A stretch of 64,000 nt of DNA from Shigella phage vB_SboM_Phaginator. This document shows, piece by piece, positions 40,300-62,604 of this stretch; position 1 is the stretch's first letter, and every line of letters begins with the position of its first letter. Position numbers and translations under genes: made by a program. The notes beneath the pieces are model-generated. The model saw only the letters and a list, made by a program, of their open reading frames with translations, made no database searches and had not been told where the DNA came from. The stretch lies in sequence record OL615012. One strand, 5' to 3'.

Positions 40300-40770
40300 T
40301 TAATCATGTGTCCACACCCCATCGGTATTTGACCAAAGTCGCTGATTATCTGATCCTCGCCACAGCTTTTTAGTCGGAAGATTTTTCTCATACTTCCCAT
40401 CAATAATAACATCAACATATTTAAGCATTTCTAGTTGTTTAATATCTTCAAACTTATATCCTGTCCACAACCAAATGCTTTTATTGGGATAAAGATTTTT
40501 TACTGTTTGAACAATGCAATGAATAACATCTCGGTTATCAGGATAGAGAGGGTCACCTCCGGTTATAGTCAATCCTTCTATATAATCATTATTCAAACAT
40601 TCAATTAATTGTTCTAGTGTTTCACTAGTGAATGGAATACCATTTCTAGCATTCCATGTTGATTTATTATAACACCCTTCGCATTTATGCAAACAACCTG
40701 TAACGAAAAGAACGACCCTGCAACCAGGGCCATTCACAAAATCGCAAGGATAAAATCTATCATAATTCAT
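40300..40770 (-). CDS. nrdG: anaerobic ribonucleotide reductase activase NrdG (radical SAM)
   Basis: 156-aa ORF with CLHKCEGCYN cluster; T4 NrdG length. Confidence 0.9.
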   Translation of the reverse strand: MNYDRFYPCDFVNGPGCRVVLFVTGCLHKCEGCYNKSTWNARNGIPFTSETLEQLIECLNNDYIEGLTITGGDPLYPDNRDVIHCIVQTVKNLYPNKSIWLWTGYKFEDIKQLEMLKYVDVIIDGKYEKNLPTKKLWRGSDNQRLWSNTDGVWTHD

Positions 40771-42584
40771 TGGTGTTTAACCCTATGCATGATTTCTTTA
40801 TTTTTACCGAGATTAAATCCGCGCTCGTTCGGATTTCCCAAATAACCGCATGTTCTTCTTATGGTATTCATCTTTTTAGGATCAGTTTCTCCACAAATAG
40901 AACAAACAAATCCGTTTTCAGTAGGAGTCATTTCATGGGTACTTCCACACGTAAAACATTTATCTACTGGCATGTTAACACCAAAATAATCTAAATGCTG
41001 TGCAGCATAATCCCATACGGCCTCAAGACCTTTTAGATTATTTTTCATATCAGGAAGTTCAACATAAGAAATGTGACCACCTGTCGCAATGAAATGATAT
41101 GGCGCTTCACGAGAAATCTTTTCAAACGGAGTAATATTTTCTTCTACTGAAACATGGAAACTATTAGTGTACCAGCCTTTATCAGTAACATCTTTTACGC
41201 TTCCATATTTTTCTGTATCAAGTTTACAGAAGCGATAACAAAGGTTTTCAGCAGGAGTAGAATACAAGCTAAAAGCAAATCCGGTTCTTTCAGTCCACTG
41301 TTTAAGACGAGCATTCATTTTAGTTAAAATTTCTTGTCCAATATCACGACCGACAAGAATATTCAATTCGTGAATACCAATGTATCCTAGAGACACTGAA
41401 CTTCTGCCATTTTTAAATAACTCAATTATATCGTCATCAGGTTTAAGACGAACCCCGAATGCACCTTCTTGGTAAAGAATAGGAGCAACAGTCGCTTTAA
41501 CTCCTTTTAAGGAACTAATTCTACACATCAAAGCTTCAAAACATAAATCCATTCGTTCATTGAATAATTCAACAAATTTCTGTTCATTGAATTGTGTTCC
41601 AATATAAGAATCTAATGCGATACGAGGAAGATTCAGTGTTACAACACCGAGATTATTACGTCCATCAAGAATTTCATTGCCAGTCGAATCTTTCCATACA
41701 CTCAAGAAACTGCGGCAACCCATTGGAGAAACAGGAATAGATGAACCAGTGATAGCTTTATTGTTCTTAGCTGAAATAATATCAGGATACATCCTTTTGC
41801 TTGCACACTCTAGAGCAAGCTGTTTAATATCATAGTTCGGATCGTCTTTGTAAAGATTAACACCTTCTTCAACGAACATAACAAGCTTAGGGAAAATAGG
41901 AGTTATCCCATCACGACCAAGACCTTTAATGCGATTTTTCAGAATTGCTTTCTGAATCATTCGTTCAGTCCAGTCAGTTCCCGTACCAAATGTAATTGTT
42001 ACAAAAGGCGTTTGTCCGTTTGAACTAAAGAGAGTATTTACTTCATATTCATAAGCTTGGAATGCATCGTATACGTCTTTTTCTGTTTTAGATTGAGCAT
42101 AATTCAACGCATCAGCGATTTGCCATTTTTCTGCATCCTCAATATGTTTTGCATAGGTGCGTTTAACATAAGGAGAAAGTACTTTATCTACATTCGCAAA
42201 AGTCGTTCCGCCATATTGATGGGAAGCAACTTGCGCAGTAATTTGTGCCATAATTGCAGTAGCAACGCCAATTGATTTAGGAGTTTCAATCTGCGCATTA
42301 CCAAGCTTAAATCCGTTCTCAAGCATTCCTTTTAAATCTACTAAACAGCAATTAGTAAATGGAAGAGCAGGGGAATAATCAATATCATGGAAATGAATAA
42401 TTCCGCTTTCATGCGCTTTCATAATAAAAGACGGGACCATATTTTTGGCAATGTGTTTAGACACAATACCAGCCATAAGGTCCCGTTGAGTTGGAAAAAC
42501 ACGAGAATCTTTATTAGCATTCTCGTTTAAAAGGTCTTTATTAGTTTTATGAATCAATCCTTCAATTTCTTTTTCAATTGTCAT
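40767..42584 (-). CDS. nrdD: anaerobic ribonucleoside-triphosphate reductase NrdD, uninterrupted
   Basis: 605-aa continuous ORF with C-terminal zinc ribbon CFTCGS...CSICG; T4 NrdD is 605 aa from two exons. Confidence 0.9.
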   Translation of the reverse strand: MTIEKEIEGLIHKTNKDLLNENANKDSRVFPTQRDLMAGIVSKHIAKNMVPSFIMKAHESGIIHFHDIDYSPALPFTNCCLVDLKGMLENGFKLGNAQIETPKSIGVATAIMAQITAQVASHQYGGTTFANVDKVLSPYVKRTYAKHIEDAEKWQIADALNYAQSKTEKDVYDAFQAYEYEVNTLFSSNGQTPFVTITFGTGTDWTERMIQKAILKNRIKGLGRDGITPIFPKLVMFVEEGVNLYKDDPNYDIKQLALECASKRMYPDIISAKNNKAITGSSIPVSPMGCRSFLSVWKDSTGNEILDGRNNLGVVTLNLPRIALDSYIGTQFNEQKFVELFNERMDLCFEALMCRISSLKGVKATVAPILYQEGAFGVRLKPDDDIIELFKNGRSSVSLGYIGIHELNILVGRDIGQEILTKMNARLKQWTERTGFAFSLYSTPAENLCYRFCKLDTEKYGSVKDVTDKGWYTNSFHVSVEENITPFEKISREAPYHFIATGGHISYVELPDMKNNLKGLEAVWDYAAQHLDYFGVNMPVDKCFTCGSTHEMTPTENGFVCSICGETDPKKMNTIRRTCGYLGNPNERGFNLGKNKEIMHRVKHQ

Positions 42585-58909: not shown

Positions 58910-59371
58910 TCATTGAGTTTTAATTACTGCTTTAGAAGCCTTTCCTGGTAAACGACGACTGTTGATAATTGCCATCCTACATTGAAGTGACGGGTCTTTG
59001 AACTTCTCATTAGGCTTACAAACTGTAAATCCAAGCCAAAGATTTCCATCTGTGATTTCTAAACGTCCAGGACGATATTCAACCCCATCAATAAAATCCT
59101 CGTCAATGTCAGGACGCGGAGGCATACTCAGGAATTCATTAACTTCTAAAACATGGTCTTTTATTTTATGGAATAATTCAAAAACATATGTCTCATCAAT
59201 CTCCCGTTGAATTGCACGATCAAGAAGATGTTGAGAATATTTTAGATGAAACGATGAGACCCCTGCTGCTTTTGATGCCTCACGAATCTCATTGTTAATT
59301 TGACGAAACTCCGACTCAAAGTGACGACGAAGCTTATTTCGACGGATAAAAACTTCTGTGTTGATAGTCAT
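58910..59371 (-). CDS. regB: RegB endoribonuclease
   Basis: 153-aa ORF MTINTEVFIRRNKLRRHFE...; T4 RegB length and sequence as recalled. Confidence 0.9.
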   Translation of the reverse strand: MTINTEVFIRRNKLRRHFESEFRQINNEIREASKAAGVSSFHLKYSQHLLDRAIQREIDETYVFELFHKIKDHVLEVNEFLSMPPRPDIDEDFIDGVEYRPGRLEITDGNLWLGFTVCKPNEKFKDPSLQCRMAIINSRRLPGKASKAVIKTQ

Positions 59372-59399
59372 GTTATTCTCCTCTTAACTGATAGAAAAA

Positions 59400-59429
59400 T
59401 TATACCACAGTCAAGAGGAAAAGTAAACA
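59400..59429 (-). promoter_or_regulatory. T4-type early promoter
   Basis: Minus strand GTTTAC-18 nt-TGGTATAAT, then GAGGAG and the regB ATG. Confidence 0.7.
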
Positions 59430-59430
59430 A

Positions 59431-59709
59431 TTATTCTTTAAATCTAATCAATTTATTCATAGACTTTGAAACTTCTGCACGAACCTCATGTAGGTTTTTA
59501 AGCTGTTCAAGACGCTGCTCATAGTAAGCAATTTCATCTTCTTCGAGACAGTCCTGCGAATCTTCTTTAAGATAACGTGCATAGTCCTGGAAAGCTTTAC
59601 GGACTACTTCCTGGAAGTCATCAAGACTTTGAATTTTCTTAGGAGCAACAGATACACGACGAGGGGCAGTATAATACTCATAACCAAACCCTGCGCTTAA
59701 TTGAGCCAT
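59431..59709 (-). CDS. hypothetical protein (~92 aa)
   Basis: ORF-track ORF trimmed to [13 protein letters not shown]..., abutting the upstream ORF's stop. Confidence 0.5.
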
Positions 59710-60011
59710 TAATATTTTTCCTCTGGTTGGAACACAGCACGACAAGCCCACATACTGGCTTCTTTGAGTTTCGTTTTAGCAATAGTTAACTGATCGAGGC
59801 TTTCAGCATAATTCTTCGCGAATTCACAGTCTTCACAATTATCTAGTGCTTCCCAGAATTCATCATATAAAGCGTCAAAGATAAGTCCTAAACGAACTTC
59901 AGCGTCTTTGATAGCATTCACTTTACCGATTTTCTCTTCAGTATGTGGCTTATAACCCTTAATATCTTCAATCATATTTGACTTCCTCACCAGTACATAA
60001 ATCATATTCAA
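59709..60011 (-). CDS. hypothetical protein (88-100 aa), 2nd ORF after regB
   Basis: ORF-track ORF; start ambiguous (MNMIYV... or MIEDIKG...). Confidence 0.5.
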
Positions 60012-60189
60012 CTAAACGAATAGGTTCATGAATGCCATATCCTTGAACAGAAATTTCTGTCGTAGGATAAATTCCATCAATATCACCCATATTCCATGCT
60101 TCATTAAATTGTTGTTCGCCTGAATTACTAAACCATTCGGCGAAAGCATTTAGCACATCTTTAGAACCTTCAATAATTATCTTTGCCAT
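59968..60189 (-). CDS. hypothetical acidic protein (73 aa)
   Basis: ORF-track ORF; ATGA-coupled to the GrcA-like gene. Confidence 0.5.
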   Translation of the reverse strand: MAKIIIEGSKDVLNAFAEWFSNSGEQQFNEAWNMGDIDGIYPTTEISVQGYGIHEPIRLVEYDLCTGEEVKYD

Positions 60190-60551
60190 TACAAACTCTC
60201 AGTAAAGGTACGAGCGATAACGTCGCGCTGCTGTTCCGGAGTCAGAGAGTTAAAGCGAACTGCATAACCGGATACACGGATGGTCAGCTGCGGATATTTT
60301 TCCGGATGCTTAACTGCATCTTCCAGAGTTTCGCGACGCAGAACGTTAACGTTCAGGTGTTGACCACCTTCAATTTTAACTGTAGGCTGTGGTTCAATTT
60401 CAATTTCACGGGCATGCAAACCGTAGAAAATTTCTGGGTCTACAAAAGAGTCCTCTTTAAAGGTTTTAGAGACAATAATTCGTGCTTGAATACCATCTTC
60501 AAAATAAATAGTACCTTTGTGTGTGCCTTCAAGAATTTGATATGCTTTCAT
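60189..60551 (-). CDS. GrcA/YfiD-like autonomous glycyl radical cofactor
   Basis: 120-aa ORF; C-terminus ...[60 protein letters not shown] carries the RVSGY glycyl-radical motif and matches E. coli GrcA as recalled. Confidence 0.7.
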
Positions 60552-60558
60552 ATAAACC

Positions 60559-60888
60559 TCAATTAGAAAATAAATTTATCCAAGATTGTTCTTTAATTAA
60601 AAATGGCTCAGAATCATATGCCATTAAACTCTGTGTGATTAGTCCTTTAAAAGGCCCATCAATAAATTCCATGGTAAAATATGGAATTTTATTCATTAAC
60701 CGTGCATTAGGAGCCGTACACAAAACTCTGCATCCTTTGAATACGCCTTTTTGTAATTTGTATTGCTTGGGATAAAATTCGCTCAAAATGTTATTATTTG
60801 CTAAAATTTCAAAATGATTCACCAATTTATTTTTAATAGTTTTTGGCGAAAAATAAAGATATTCGAAAAGCTGAGTGTCTGTCATCAT
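60559..60888 (-). CDS. hypothetical protein (~109 aa)
   Basis: ORF-track ORF trimmed to an internal Met to give ATGA coupling. Confidence 0.5.
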
Positions 60889-61427
60889 TGCATTCCGATT
60901 ATGAAAAACTGTGGACGAGTAATACCACCAATGCAGCATTTACTATTGCAACAGTGGTGCACAGTTTCAATATGAATATCGTAAATTTTATCCATATCAG
61001 GAGATTTAACAGGCTCATCGATTATATACAAAATCCGCGAAAGCGATAAACCTCTGAACTTGCTACCTCTATTACCAACAAAACTACGGACAGAAACAGT
61101 AAATAAACGGAATCGAATATCATCATTAGAATAGCGTGAAAATTCTTTTTTAATGTGGCCCGCAGAAATTTTAGCGTAAGCTGAAGTATTAGAAAGAACA
61201 ATAACTGTTCCACCGTCATACAACCAATTAGCGGCAAAATTAGTTACTGCAGTTGATTTACCGGATTGACGTCCACCATCTAGTCGAAGTGTGCAGTATT
61301 CTTTAAATAAATGTGGCGAATCAGGTACATAAAATCCACTATTACAAATTTCTTCTACTCTAGCATCAGAATGGTGTGTAAAAGCATTCATCAGGGATAG
61401 ATAAGGACCAGTTAAAAATGTTCTCAT
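60885..61427 (-). CDS. small P-loop NTPase with C-terminal Cys cluster (~180 aa)
   Basis: Trimmed to MRTFLTGPYL... after AGAGAGAATAAA; Walker A GGRQSGKST, Walker B ILYIIDEP, tail HHCCNSKCC. Confidence 0.55.
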   Translation of the reverse strand: MRTFLTGPYLSLMNAFTHHSDARVEEICNSGFYVPDSPHLFKEYCTLRLDGGRQSGKSTAVTNFAANWLYDGGTVIVLSNTSAYAKISAGHIKKEFSRYSNDDIRFRLFTVSVRSFVGNRGSKFRGLSLSRILYIIDEPVKSPDMDKIYDIHIETVHHCCNSKCCIGGITRPQFFIIGMQ

Positions 61428-61593
61428 TTTATTCTCTCTAAATTTGGGCCATTCCATGGCGCGTGAATTGTCCATTTCTGTATTTACCCATTACCGCACT
61501 TGGGCTCGACCTTATTACAGGTTGGCTGGAATCCCTCACAGAATCATGAGGTCCAGCTTGTTCCCATTTTATTTGAATGTAAATAGATCTGAG

Positions 61594-62172
61594 TTAGGAA
61601 TTACGGGCTGCATTAGCAACGGCGTAAGCGTACTGGACATTAGCGTCTTTAAACGTACCTTTAGAGGTATCTATTTCTGCCTTAAAGCCGCCTTTAGCCA
61701 TAACATCGGCAAATTCTTTACGGAAAGCCATTGCATCAAGACCTTTCCATGATGATTTATGCTTGGCAAATTCAAGACCAGCGTAGTTGACAGCCTTAGC
61801 TAATTTATTATCAATAACCCATTTACCGGCTTTAGGCACAAACTTCGGGCCTTTTTGTTTAGAGAACAGTTTTAAATTCCAGCGACGAAGGTCACTGTCG
61901 GCTTTAACAAAAGCTGCGTCTAAGTTACTAGCAACAACATCTTCAATATGAGCAAATTTAAGTCCGTCAACTTCAATATTTAGATCGTTACGCCAGCGAA
62001 GTCCTTCCCAAGCGAAGGCTTTAAAGTCGGAAGCCTTTGTAGCTAAGTACCGTTCAATAGGAGCTGTTTTAGGGTCAAAGCCGTTTCCCGATCGGTAGGT
62101 CCACTCATCTTTATTAATGCCTTTGGCCTTTACTATAGAAGCTTCGGCAATAAATTCTTGATAGGTTTTCAT
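61594..62172 (-). CDS. ipIII: internal protein, IPIII-like (capsid targeting sequence)
   Basis: 192-aa basic ORF beginning MKTYQEFIAEA, the T4 internal-protein targeting sequence; T4 IPIII ~194 aa. Confidence 0.75.
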   Translation of the reverse strand: MKTYQEFIAEASIVKAKGINKDEWTYRSGNGFDPKTAPIERYLATKASDFKAFAWEGLRWRNDLNIEVDGLKFAHIEDVVASNLDAAFVKADSDLRRWNLKLFSKQKGPKFVPKAGKWVIDNKLAKAVNYAGLEFAKHKSSWKGLDAMAFRKEFADVMAKGGFKAEIDTSKGTFKDANVQYAYAVANAARNS

Positions 62173-62200
62173 GTGTTTCCTTGTTTGTTTTGATAGAGTA

Positions 62201-62230
62201 ATTATACCATATTAATACTTAAGCGTAAAC
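62201..62230 (-). promoter_or_regulatory. T4-type early promoter
   Basis: Minus strand GTTTAC-18 nt-TGGTATAAT upstream of the IPIII-like gene. Confidence 0.7.
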
Positions 62231-62233
62231 CGT

Positions 62234-62494
62234 TTAAGCTTTACCGCCAGAAATAATTCCGAAGTTGTTAAAATCATATCCAATATCGTCAACATCTACT
62301 TTAGGACTTGCTACAGCATAAGCAATTTCACTACGTTTTGCACAGGTGTTGATTTCTTTACCATCGCCACCTAAGAAAGAATACCCATTACGTTTTAATG
62401 AGCCAAAGTCTTCCGCATCACCAATGAAAGCTTTAACTTTAAATTTAGAACCTTTGGCATCTGCTTCAACGATAAATTCTTGATACATTTTCAT
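62234..62494 (-). CDS. internal protein, IPII-like (capsid targeting sequence)
   Basis: 86-aa ORF beginning MKMYQEFIVEA. Confidence 0.65.
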   Translation of the reverse strand: MKMYQEFIVEADAKGSKFKVKAFIGDAEDFGSLKRNGYSFLGGDGKEINTCAKRSEIAYAVASPKVDVDDIGYDFNNFGIISGGKA

Positions 62495-62500
62495 TTTTCC

Positions 62501-62604
62501 TTAGTAAATTGATTTACCAAAGTATTTGTACCAAGTCGGACGTTGATCAATTTTTTCATCTAAGCGTGCTTGATTTATCGCAATGGACGCTTCGGACGGG
62601 TCAT
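62501..62604 (-). pseudogene. denV: denV (endonuclease V) deletion remnant
   Basis: ATG after GGAGG encodes MTRPKRPLR then stop; a second frame reads [30 protein letters not shown], matching the T4 endonuclease V C-terminus as recalled. Confidence 0.6.

What the first reader, a model, noticed from the sequence alone, without database searches (positions are those of the whole stretch)
60189..60551. Host-like GrcA glycyl-radical cofactor gene in a phage with NrdD/NrdG
The C-terminal ~60 residues, including [29 protein letters not shown], match E. coli GrcA (YfiD) as I recall, while the N-terminal ~60 residues differ. This suggests capture of a host gene fragment fused to a phage-specific N-terminus. 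The phage also encodes the glycyl-radical enzyme NrdD and its activase NrdG in this window, so this could be a spare glycyl-radical domain.
Basis: partly seen in the sequence, partly recalled or inferred. Interest (0 to 1): 0.45.

Follow-up and report, generated by a model that had tools for sequence, protein, structure and literature searches.

The report
Phage T4 vs.6: GrcA-like spare part
This is the well-known T4-type phage gene vs.6 (Y06I), a small "spare part" protein that repairs the host's oxygen-damaged pyruvate formate-lyase; the one less ordinary thing is that its working half is an exact DNA copy of the host's own grcA gene, apparently pasted in by recombination.

Summary
The ORF at 60189-60551 (minus strand, 120 aa) has a C-terminal 60 residues that are 60/60 identical to E. 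coli GrcA (YfiD), and an N-terminal half that is strongly diverged.

The gene is not new. It is the ortholog of T4 vs.6 (Y06I), 119/120 identical to the T4 protein. That protein was shown in 2001 to be radical-activated by host PFL activase and to restore oxygen-cleaved pyruvate formate-lyase. About 1,500 phage records carry a homolog.

It is a spare part for host PFL, not for the phage's NrdD. NrdD and NrdG are in the window, about 18 kb away, but are unrelated in sequence.

The "phage-specific N-terminus" reading is only partly right. Residues 21-60 are a collinear, diverged homolog of GrcA 27-67.

The added result is at the DNA level. A 175-nt run (60199-60373) is identical to E. coli K-12 grcA, and it is the only E. 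coli-like DNA in the 64 kb. Phage RB16 encodes the same 60 residues with 31 nucleotide differences. Klebsiella-type phages carry the same tract, 95-97% identical to a Klebsiella-like grcA instead. This indicates at least two host-to-phage gene conversions, as with cyanophage psbA.

The gene is known. The mosaic is a modest new detail.

The parts
60189..60551 (-). CDS of 120 aa, the ortholog of T4 vs.6 (Y06I): an autonomous glycyl-radical 'spare part' protein of the GrcA/YfiD type
   Evidence: ORF. 119/120 aa identical to T4 vs.6. phrog_1209 matched full length at 1.2e-62. Pfam Gly_radical 2.8e-18. TIGR04365 GrcA scores 153 bits. Synteny vs.8-vs.7-vs.6-vs.5-vs.4-vs.3-regB as in phage AR1 and T4.
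60199..60373 (-). 175-nt tract exactly identical to E. coli K-12 grcA. It encodes the strand / Gly-loop / helix module, from the 2nd base of codon 60 to the 2nd base of codon 118.
   Evidence: Longest identical run is 175 nt. blastn gives 182/185 to grcA in 5,426/5,426 E. coli genomes. It is the only megablast match of the whole 64-kb window to E. coli. The tail has GC3 0.44, the same as the E. coli tail, against 0.22 in the 5' half. Tail identity is 145/186 to pflB against 182/186 to grcA.
60374..60551 (-). Diverged, AT-rich 5' half (aa 1-60). [quoted passage not shown]
   Evidence: About 42-57% nucleotide identity to grcA in codon alignment. No phage record has DNA similarity to the 5' 198 nt of E. 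coli grcA. Heads-only hhalign: residues 21-60 vs 27-67, probability 87.6%, E = 3.5e-6, 33% identity. Role of GrcA residues 1-60 from PMC8683613.
60267..60269 (-). Codon of Gly95 (GGT) in the RVSGYAV loop. This is the predicted radical site, equivalent to GrcA Gly102 and PFL Gly734.
   Evidence: Motif position computed. Alignments to 6owr and to PFL 1h16/1cm5.
60189..60198 (-). 3' edge: the third base of codon E118, codons S119 and L120, and the stop. The last three sense codons keep phage-type synonymous codons (GAG AGT TTG against host GAA AGC CTG). The TAA stop overlaps the ATG of the next gene, a vs.5-like ORF.
   Evidence: Codon alignment. Sequence TTGTAATGG read. No host 3' flank is present, which fits homologous replacement rather than fresh capture.
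60557..60560 (-). Shine-Dalgarno GAGG, 5 nt upstream of the ATG and overlapping the TGA stop of vs.7
   Evidence: Read directly from the sequence. vs.7 ORF 60559-60939.

Best explanation
The ORF is the Tequatrovirus ortholog of T4 vs.6 (Y06I), a 14-kDa stand-alone glycyl-radical protein of the GrcA/YfiD type.

Mechanism (published for the T4 protein, inferred here from 119/120 identity):
1. Oxygen cleaves the host's active pyruvate formate-lyase at its radical glycine, Gly734.
2. The phage protein binds the large remnant. Its C-terminal 60 residues are identical to GrcA 68-127 and replace the lost strand / Gly-loop / helix module.
3. The host radical-SAM activase PflA (PFL-AE) installs a radical on Gly95.
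4. Conversion of pyruvate to acetyl-CoA plus formate resumes.

The diverged N-terminal half corresponds to the disordered GrcA region that promotes binding to cleaved PFL and efficient activation.

Inferred biological role: a lytic phage shuts off host gene expression, so it supplies the spare part itself. This would keep fermentative energy and acetyl-CoA supply running in the microaerobic gut.

Evolution (shown here at sequence level): vs.6 is an old phage gene family. In coliphages of the T4 and RB69 types, the whole block that is alignable with the host gene was replaced by E. coli grcA DNA through homologous recombination (gene conversion). Klebsiella-type Jiaodaviruses had the same block replaced from a Klebsiella-like grcA.
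For: Identity of the gene:
- 119/120 aa identical to T4 vs.6, in the same gene order.
- Full-length match to phrog_1209.
- Pfam Gly_radical; NCBIfam GrcA is the best hit.
- 60/60 identity to the structured half of GrcA (6owr), and 94 bits to PFL 697-759.

Function:
- T4 Y06I and E. coli YfiD are the only two experimentally validated spare-part proteins. Both are activated by PFL-AE and restore cleaved PFL (PMC8683613 citing Wagner et al. 2001).
- The phage N-terminal half is collinear with it.

Gene conversion:
- There is a 175-nt exact run against E. coli grcA, with both edges reverting to phage-type sequence.
- RB16 encodes the same 60 aa with 31 nucleotide differences, so protein constraint cannot explain the identity.
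- E. coli grcA head and tail are equally diverged from Salmonella (84.3% and 83.9%), so the host gene is vertical and the direction is host to phage.
- Tail GC3 is 0.44, head GC3 0.22.
- 628 phage records carry the tail at 95-99% identity to the E. coli tail. None has DNA similarity to the grcA 5' 198 nt.
- Inner 171-nt tract: window 171/171 to E. coli and 151/171 to a Klebsiella-like grcA. Jiaodavirus PSE-D1 is 166/171 to the Klebsiella-like gene and 152/171 to E. coli. The two host genes match each other at 151/171.
- Between this phage and Mosigvirus SF, synonymous codon differences are 4/61 in the tail against 46/119 in the flanking genes, p = 2.6e-6.
Against: - No experiment here. The rescue activity is known only in vitro and for the T4 protein. 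A fitness benefit during infection has not been shown, and I found no paper testing it.
- The protein scores below the NCBIfam GrcA equivalog cut-off (153 against 170 bits) because of its N-terminal half.
- The Klebsiella-like donor is identified only by 57% GC flanks and a best match to a Klebsiella MAG (83% over 1.36 kb), not to species.
- Only two phage-host pairs show host-specific tracts. Other lineages are 70-84% identical to every sampled host.
- Whether Tequatrovirus and Mosigvirus were converted once or repeatedly is unresolved.
- Conversion may be neutral, simply occurring where homology exists, rather than adaptive.
Confidence: 0.88

Rival explanations
1. One-off capture of a 3' fragment of host grcA by illegitimate recombination, fused in frame to an unrelated phage-specific N-terminal peptide.
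For: There is an abrupt identity boundary at codon 60/61. The N-terminal half has no DNA-level similarity to grcA. GC3 jumps from 0.22 to 0.44.
Against: - The N-terminal halves of phage and host align collinearly: 33% identity over 40 aa, hhalign E = 3.5e-6.
- The full-length gene exists in many phage lineages whose tails are old and diverged from every sampled host, including RB16, Krischvirus, T5-like and jumbo phages.
- No host flank was co-captured. The last three codons remain phage-type and the stop overlaps the next phage gene.
- The same tract, with the same edges, carries a different host's sequence in Jiaodavirus.
Confidence: 0.07
2. It is a spare glycyl-radical domain for the phage's own anaerobic ribonucleotide reductase NrdD, activated by NrdG. 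This is the nucleotide-metabolism reading, also suggested in Nolan et al. 2006.
For: NrdD and NrdG are encoded in the same window. Both proteins match Pfam Gly_radical. PMC1524935 speculated on a role in nucleotide metabolism.
Against: - BLASTP between vs.6 and NrdD finds nothing (E = 2.6).
- The NrdD loop is IRRTCGYLGNPNERGF, against [14 protein letters not shown] in vs.6.
- The vs.6 tail is 100% GrcA and 94 bits to PFL.
- The genes lie about 18 kb apart.
- Biochemistry on T4 Y06I shows PFL-AE-dependent rescue of PFL.
Confidence: 0.02
3. The nucleotide identity to E. coli grcA reflects purifying selection and codon-usage convergence on a highly constrained module, not recombination.
For: The 60-aa tail is almost invariant across Enterobacterales and phages.
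Against: - RB16 encodes the identical 60 aa with 31/186 nucleotide differences.
- Salmonella grcA is only 83.9% identical to E. coli in the tail.
- Phage tails track the synonymous sites of their own host genus: E. coli type in Tequatrovirus, Klebsiella-like type in Jiaodavirus.
Confidence: 0.01
4. The protein acts as a decoy. It soaks up PFL-AE or caps damaged PFL, shutting down or redirecting host pyruvate metabolism rather than rescuing it.
For: The N-terminal half, which in YfiD governs binding and activation, is the part that differs from the host protein. No in-vivo phage phenotype is on record in the papers I could read.
Against: According to the literature, T4 Y06I restores PFL activity in vitro in the same way as YfiD. 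The catalytic module, including the glycine, is intact and identical to GrcA.
Confidence: 0.03

Closest known systems
Bacteriophage T4 Vs.6 (Y06I, NP_049730.1)
   Same: Ortholog: 119/120 aa identical (the single difference is R73H), same length, same gene neighbourhood, and the same E. coli-like 3' tract (181/186 in T4). Y06I is one of the two experimentally validated spare-part proteins for PFL.
   Different: One amino acid and a few synonymous sites. T4 has GAA at codon 118, so its host-identical stretch reaches one codon further at the 3' end.
E. coli GrcA / YfiD (PDB 6owr; TIGR04365)
   Same: The C-terminal 60 aa are identical and the DNA is 98% identical. It is a stand-alone 14-kDa protein with the same Gly loop, and the N-terminal half is collinear with the phage protein.
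   Different: The phage protein is 7 aa shorter. Its N-terminal half is only about 33% identical over 40 aa, with the first 20 residues not significantly alignable. It falls below the NCBIfam equivalog cut-off. It is encoded in an AT-rich lytic phage operon instead of between ung and eamB.
C-terminal glycyl-radical domain of pyruvate formate-lyase PflB (residues 697-759)
   Same: Same fold module and Gly loop: 94 bits, E = 5e-26. This is the part of PFL that the spare part replaces.
   Different: Only 145/186 nt and about 75% aa identity, so pflB is not the donor. PFL is a 759-aa enzyme.
Cyanophage psbA/psbD: host-like photosynthesis genes with intragenic host-phage recombination patches (Sullivan et al. 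2006, PMC1484495)
   Same: Both are auxiliary metabolic genes in T4-like phages that replace a damage-prone host protein part during infection. Both carry patches of host-type nucleotide sequence and GC content inside a phage-type gene.
   Different: A different pathway (fermentation, not photosynthesis) and enteric hosts. Here one discrete block, with the same edges, is replaced in two phage genera.

Membership tests
GrcA/YfiD autonomous glycyl radical cofactor (TIGR04365, IPR011140) | Small stand-alone protein (about 14 kDa) whose only domain is the C-terminal glycyl-radical module | tested here: met
   120 aa. Pfam PF01228 covers residues 61-101, matching only the last 41 positions of the model.
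GrcA/YfiD autonomous glycyl radical cofactor (TIGR04365, IPR011140) | Conserved radical glycine in the RVSGYAV loop, collinear with GrcA 61-127 and PFL 693-759 | tested here: met
   Gly95 lies in RVSGYAV. 60/60 identity to GrcA 68-127; 63-aa alignment to PFL 697-759.
GrcA/YfiD autonomous glycyl radical cofactor (TIGR04365, IPR011140) | N-terminal half homologous to GrcA residues 1-60 | tested here: inconclusive
   Heads-only hhalign: residues 21-60 vs 27-67, probability 87.6%, E = 3.5e-6. Heads-only BLASTP: E = 1.6e-5, 32.5% identity. The first 20 residues are not significantly aligned.
GrcA/YfiD autonomous glycyl radical cofactor (TIGR04365, IPR011140) | Score above the NCBIfam equivalog cut-off (170 bits) | tested here: not met
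   153.3 bits, E = 3.7e-45. It is the best-scoring family but below the cut-off. RefSeq nevertheless names the T4 ortholog GrcA.
GrcA/YfiD autonomous glycyl radical cofactor (TIGR04365, IPR011140) | Radical installation by PFL-AE and restoration of activity to oxygen-cleaved PFL | not testable with these tools
   Reported for T4 Y06I, which is 119/120 identical, by Wagner et al. 2001 as summarised in PMC8683613. The primary paper is not in the library.
T4 vs.6 orthologous group (phrog_1209) | Full-length profile match and conserved position between vs.7 and vs.5/vs.4 upstream of regB | tested here: met
   phrog_1209: 1.2e-62 over 1-120 of 121 profile positions. Gene order as in AR1 and T4. 756 phage records by megablast.
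Class III ribonucleotide reductase (NrdD) radical domain / NrdG substrate | Sequence similarity to the NrdD C-terminal glycine loop (RRTCGYLG in this phage) | tested here: not met
   BLASTP of vs.6 against the window's NrdD gives E = 2.6, and the alignment is not at the Gly loop. NrdD C-terminus read.
Host-phage mosaic auxiliary metabolic gene (intragenic recombination, cyanophage psbA type) | A patch of host-type nucleotides and host-type GC inside a phage-type gene, with different phage lineages carrying patches that match their own hosts | tested here: met
   175-nt exact E. coli run, with GC3 0.44 against 0.22. Jiaodavirus tract is 163-166/171 to a Klebsiella-like grcA and 148-152/171 to E. 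coli; the window shows the reverse pattern.

The most novel reading that the evidence does not exclude
vs.6 is kept in register with each host's grcA by recurrent homologous recombination with host chromosomal DNA during lytic infection.

The whole alignable 171-175-nt block has been overwritten at least twice independently. In Tequatrovirus/Mosigvirus the donor was E. coli. In Jiaodavirus it was a Klebsiella-like bacterium.

This would be an enteric counterpart of cyanophage psbA mosaicism. It would also be direct evidence that T-even phages, which degrade host DNA and use modified cytosine, still acquire host sequence by gene conversion. I found no paper describing this for vs.6. However, the T4 genome review and the 2001 primary paper could not be read.
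Probability: 0.6. Interest if true: 0.5.

Novelty: already known. Interest (0 to 1): 0.3.

Why it matters
The gene itself adds nothing new. It is a textbook example of a phage auxiliary metabolic gene that backs up a damage-prone host enzyme.

Two things have some value. First, the report corrects the tempting but wrong link to NrdD/NrdG. It also flags inconsistent database annotation: "hypothetical protein", "pyruvate formate-lyase", "ribonucleotide reductase subunit", and PHROG "unknown function".

Second, the host-specific, exactly bounded DNA tract offers a natural and easily assayed marker for host-to-phage gene conversion in T-even phages. One could measure how often a lytic phage copies host sequence, using synonymous markers placed in grcA.

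Tried and rejected
1. **Primary sources not held.** I tried to read Wagner et al. 2001, the T4 genome review (PMC150520) and Bowman et al. 2019 (PMC6754787). None is in the library. The function therefore rests on PMC8683613.
2. **Promoter and terminator scan of 59300-62600.** Counts are no higher than in shuffled sequence: 10 against 10.2 and 2 against 2.3. No dedicated promoter is claimed, and the gene appears translationally coupled within a minus-strand operon.
3. **Search for a phage carrying a complete host-like grcA.** The E. coli 5' 198 nt finds no match in 50,697 phage records.
4. **pflB as donor.** Rejected: 145/186 against 182/186 for grcA.
5. **IMG/VR loci that were not phage genes.** Several proved to be bacterial fragments: L122 carries a Yersinia-like host grcA, and L162-L170 carry pflB. 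They were excluded.
6. **More host-specific tracts in other phage lineages.** RB16, Slopekvirus, Krischvirus, T5-like and jumbo phages all reach only 70-84% identity to any sampled host.
7. **Species identity of the Klebsiella-like donor.** It could not be settled. The best GTDB representative among the 80 fetched is a Klebsiella MAG at 83%.
8. **SF (Mosigvirus) tail against E. coli genomes.** The best match is 97.3%. This is too few differences to decide between a single conversion and repeated ones.
9. **Structure prediction.** Not run. The ordered half is identical to a solved structure.

Full report
**1. The observation**

The region 60189-60551 holds a 120-aa ORF on the minus strand with an ATG start. 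A GAGG Shine-Dalgarno lies 5 nt upstream and overlaps the stop codon of the preceding gene. Its own TAA stop overlaps the ATG of the next gene (sequence).

- The protein matches Pfam Gly_radical (2.8e-18, residues 61-101).
- Its best NCBIfam hit is the GrcA equivalog TIGR04365 (E = 3.7e-45, 153 bits, below the 170-bit cut-off).
- It matches phrog_1209 over its full length (1.2e-62).
- Against solved structures the top hit is E. coli GrcA (6owr, E = 8.6e-42), followed by pyruvate formate-lyase residues 697-759 (E = 5e-26).
- Residues 61-120 are 60/60 identical to GrcA 68-127.

**2. What the gene is**

The window comes from a Tequatrovirus. The gene is 99.7% identical in DNA to that of phage Kha5h and 98.9% to those of AR1 and RB51. 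In those phages it is gene vs.6, lying between vs.7 and a vs.5-like ORF upstream of vs.4, vs.3 and regB.

In the T4 reference, vs.6 (NP_049730.1) is annotated "autonomous glycyl radical cofactor GrcA". It differs from the window protein at one residue, R73H.

T4 Vs.6 is UniProt Y06I. According to PMC8683613, Knappe and co-workers (Wagner et al. 2001) showed two things about E. coli YfiD and T4 Y06I:
- Both receive a glycyl radical from the PFL activating enzyme.
- Both form a complex with oxygen-cleaved PFL and restore its activity.

These remain the only two validated spare-part proteins.

Nolan et al. 2006 (PMC1524935) listed vs.6 among the eleven ORFs of unknown function conserved in all T4-like genomes then available. 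They guessed a role in nucleotide metabolism.

Homologs occur in 756 phage records by megablast and 1,512 by blastn. They include T4-like, T5-like and jumbo phages. The gene is already known and widespread.

**3. Relation to NrdD and NrdG**

NrdD (40767-42584, Pfam NRDD 1.2e-171) and NrdG (40300-40770) are present about 18 kb away. BLASTP of Vs.6 against NrdD gives E = 2.6. The NrdD glycine loop is IRRTCGYLGNPNERGF, whereas Vs.6 has [14 protein letters not shown].

The Vs.6 radical module is the PFL/GrcA module, not the RNR one. Its partners are therefore host PflB and PflA. The co-occurrence reflects a shared anaerobic lifestyle, not one system.

**4. The N-terminal half**

In YfiD, residues 1-60 are disordered. 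They are nonetheless needed for measurable binding to cleaved PFL and for efficient radical installation (PMC8683613).

I aligned the N-terminal halves of ten phage proteins separately from 67 distinct host GrcA N-terminal halves, then compared the two alignments.
- Phage residues 21-60 align collinearly with GrcA 27-67.
- Identity is 33%, hhalign probability 87.6%, E = 3.5e-6.
- Heads-only BLASTP gives E = 1.6e-5.
- The shared pattern is A-R-x-(I/V)-V-x-K ... (F/Y)-x-E-D ... R-E-(I/V) ... P-x-V.

The phage protein is thus a full-length, diverged GrcA homolog. It is not a host fragment fused to an unrelated peptide.

**5. The DNA mosaic**

In codon alignment with E. coli K-12 grcA, the 5' half is about 42-57% identical. 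From the second base of codon 60 to the second base of codon 118 there is a 175-nt run with no difference (window 60199-60373). The last three sense codons are synonymous but phage-type: GAG AGT TTG against host GAA AGC CTG.

- blastn gives 182/185 against grcA in all 5,426 complete E. coli genomes.
- This tract is the only part of the 64-kb window with any megablast match to E. coli.
- GC3 is 0.22 in the head and 0.44 in the tail. The E. coli tail is also 0.44.
- The donor is grcA (182/186), not pflB (145/186).

**6. Controls: recombination, not constraint**

- Phage RB16 encodes the identical 60-aa tail with 31/186 nucleotide differences from E. coli.
- Salmonella grcA is only 83.9% identical to E. 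coli in the tail and 84.3% in the head. The host gene is therefore vertically coherent, and the phage tract (98%) is much younger than the E. coli-Salmonella split. The direction is host to phage.
- The E. coli tail finds 628 phage records at 95-99% identity. The E. coli 5' 198 nt finds none.
- Between this phage and Mosigvirus SF, codons that encode the same amino acid differ at 4/61 in the tail, 12/52 in the head and 46/119 in the flanking vs.7 and vs.5 genes. Fisher's test for tail against flanks gives p = 2.6e-6.

The tract is therefore younger than the split of the two phage genera, or it is repeatedly re-homogenised.

**7. A second, host-specific case**

Jiaodaviruses are Klebsiella and Salmonella phages; I used JD18 and PSE-D1. 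Their head is phage-type (GC3 0.25) and their tail is GC-rich (GC3 0.59-0.62).

An exact 59-nt piece of their tail was found in 24 metagenome contigs. Twenty-three of these are bacterial. They have flanks of 52-58% GC (mostly 56-58%), contigs up to 620 kb, and a host-type GrcA N-terminus beginning MITGIQITK. Among the fetched GTDB representatives, the closest are a Klebsiella MAG and a Raoultella MAG.

Identity over the inner 171 nt:

| Sequence | vs Klebsiella-like grcA | vs E. coli grcA |
|---|---|---|
| PSE-D1 (Jiaodavirus) | 166/171 | 152/171 |
| JD18 (Jiaodavirus) | 163/171 | 148/171 |
| Window gene (Tequatrovirus) | 151/171 | 171/171 |
| E. coli grcA | 151/171 | (same gene) |

The tract has the same edges in both phage genera. 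It starts at the GAA of EGGQH and ends before the last three or four codons, which stay phage-type.

This reciprocal pattern requires at least two independent host-to-phage replacements of the same block. Other lineages (RB16, Slopekvirus, Krischvirus, T5-like, jumbo phages) are 70-84% identical to every sampled host. They appear to carry old tails that have diverged from every sampled host.

**8. Interpretation**

The tract spans essentially the whole stretch in which the phage and host genes are alignable. No host flanking sequence came with it. This fits homologous or homeologous recombination (gene conversion) into a pre-existing phage gene, not fresh capture.

Whether the conversion is adaptive or merely happens where homology allows cannot be decided here. 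An adaptive reading would be that it keeps the module matched to the host's PFL and activase. At the two variable positions (EDAVK against LLDAVE), phage tails match their host type.

The closest precedent is the intragenic host-phage recombination described for cyanophage psbA (PMC1484495). I found no paper reporting it for vs.6. The key older T4 papers were not readable, so I cannot claim it is unreported.

**9. Verdict**

The finding is real but already known: T4 vs.6/Y06I, a GrcA-type spare part for host PFL.
- The NrdD/NrdG link is not supported.
- Interest is low to moderate. The host-tracking conversion tract is the only part that might repay further work.

Noticed in passing
window 59709-60011 (- strand): The vs.4 ortholog, two genes downstream of vs.6, matches Pfam Acb2/Tad1 hairpin domain (1.1e-19). 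This is the anti-CBASS cyclic-nucleotide sponge family. From my own knowledge this is a known property of T4 Vs.4; I did not check it further.
   Followed up: no
window 59968-60189 (- strand) vs T4 NC_000866 63381-63557: The vs.5-like ORF is 73 aa here, and 74 aa with a conserved sequence in Mosigvirus SF. T4 vs.5 is 58 aa and switches after about residue 17 into the frame that appears in the window as ORF 60012-60149. The T4 reference therefore carries a frameshifted version of this gene.
   Followed up: partly
window 40767-42584 (- strand): nrdD is one uninterrupted 605-aa ORF with a full-length Pfam NRDD match. From my own knowledge, T4 nrdD (sunY) is split by a group I intron, so this phage appears to lack it. 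I did not check this with Rfam.
   Followed up: no
phage database records; phrog_1209: Annotation of vs.6 homologs is inconsistent. Labels include 'hypothetical protein', 'pyruvate formate-lyase', 'putative acetyltransferase-related protein' and, in several T5-like Salmonella phages, 'ribonucleotide reductase subunit'. PHROGs lists the family as unknown function despite the 2001 biochemistry.
   Followed up: no
L088 (Klebsiella phage CPRSA, 401-765) and L119 (IMG/VR contig, 1201-1559): In these two records the vs.6 homolog is frameshifted. In CPRSA it is split into two annotated CDSs, and the L119 match is 359 nt long. This could be pseudogenisation or sequencing error.
   Followed up: no
L090 (Salmonella phage Spc35, T5-like) 420-788; T5 AY543070 27668-27840: T5-like phages carry a vs.6-like gene right after a tRNA cluster. 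Its N-terminus begins like the T4 type (MKAYQNLKSG), and its tail is as close to pflB as to grcA (141 against 134 of 186; it ends ...TFTQAM like PFL). This suggests a different or older source for the radical module.
   Followed up: partly
window 60559-60939 (- strand): The longest ORF for vs.7 starts 17 codons upstream of the T4 start (MLHWWYYSSTVFHNRNA before MMTDTQ...) and overlaps the end of vs.8. The real start is probably the T4-like MMTD.
   Followed up: no
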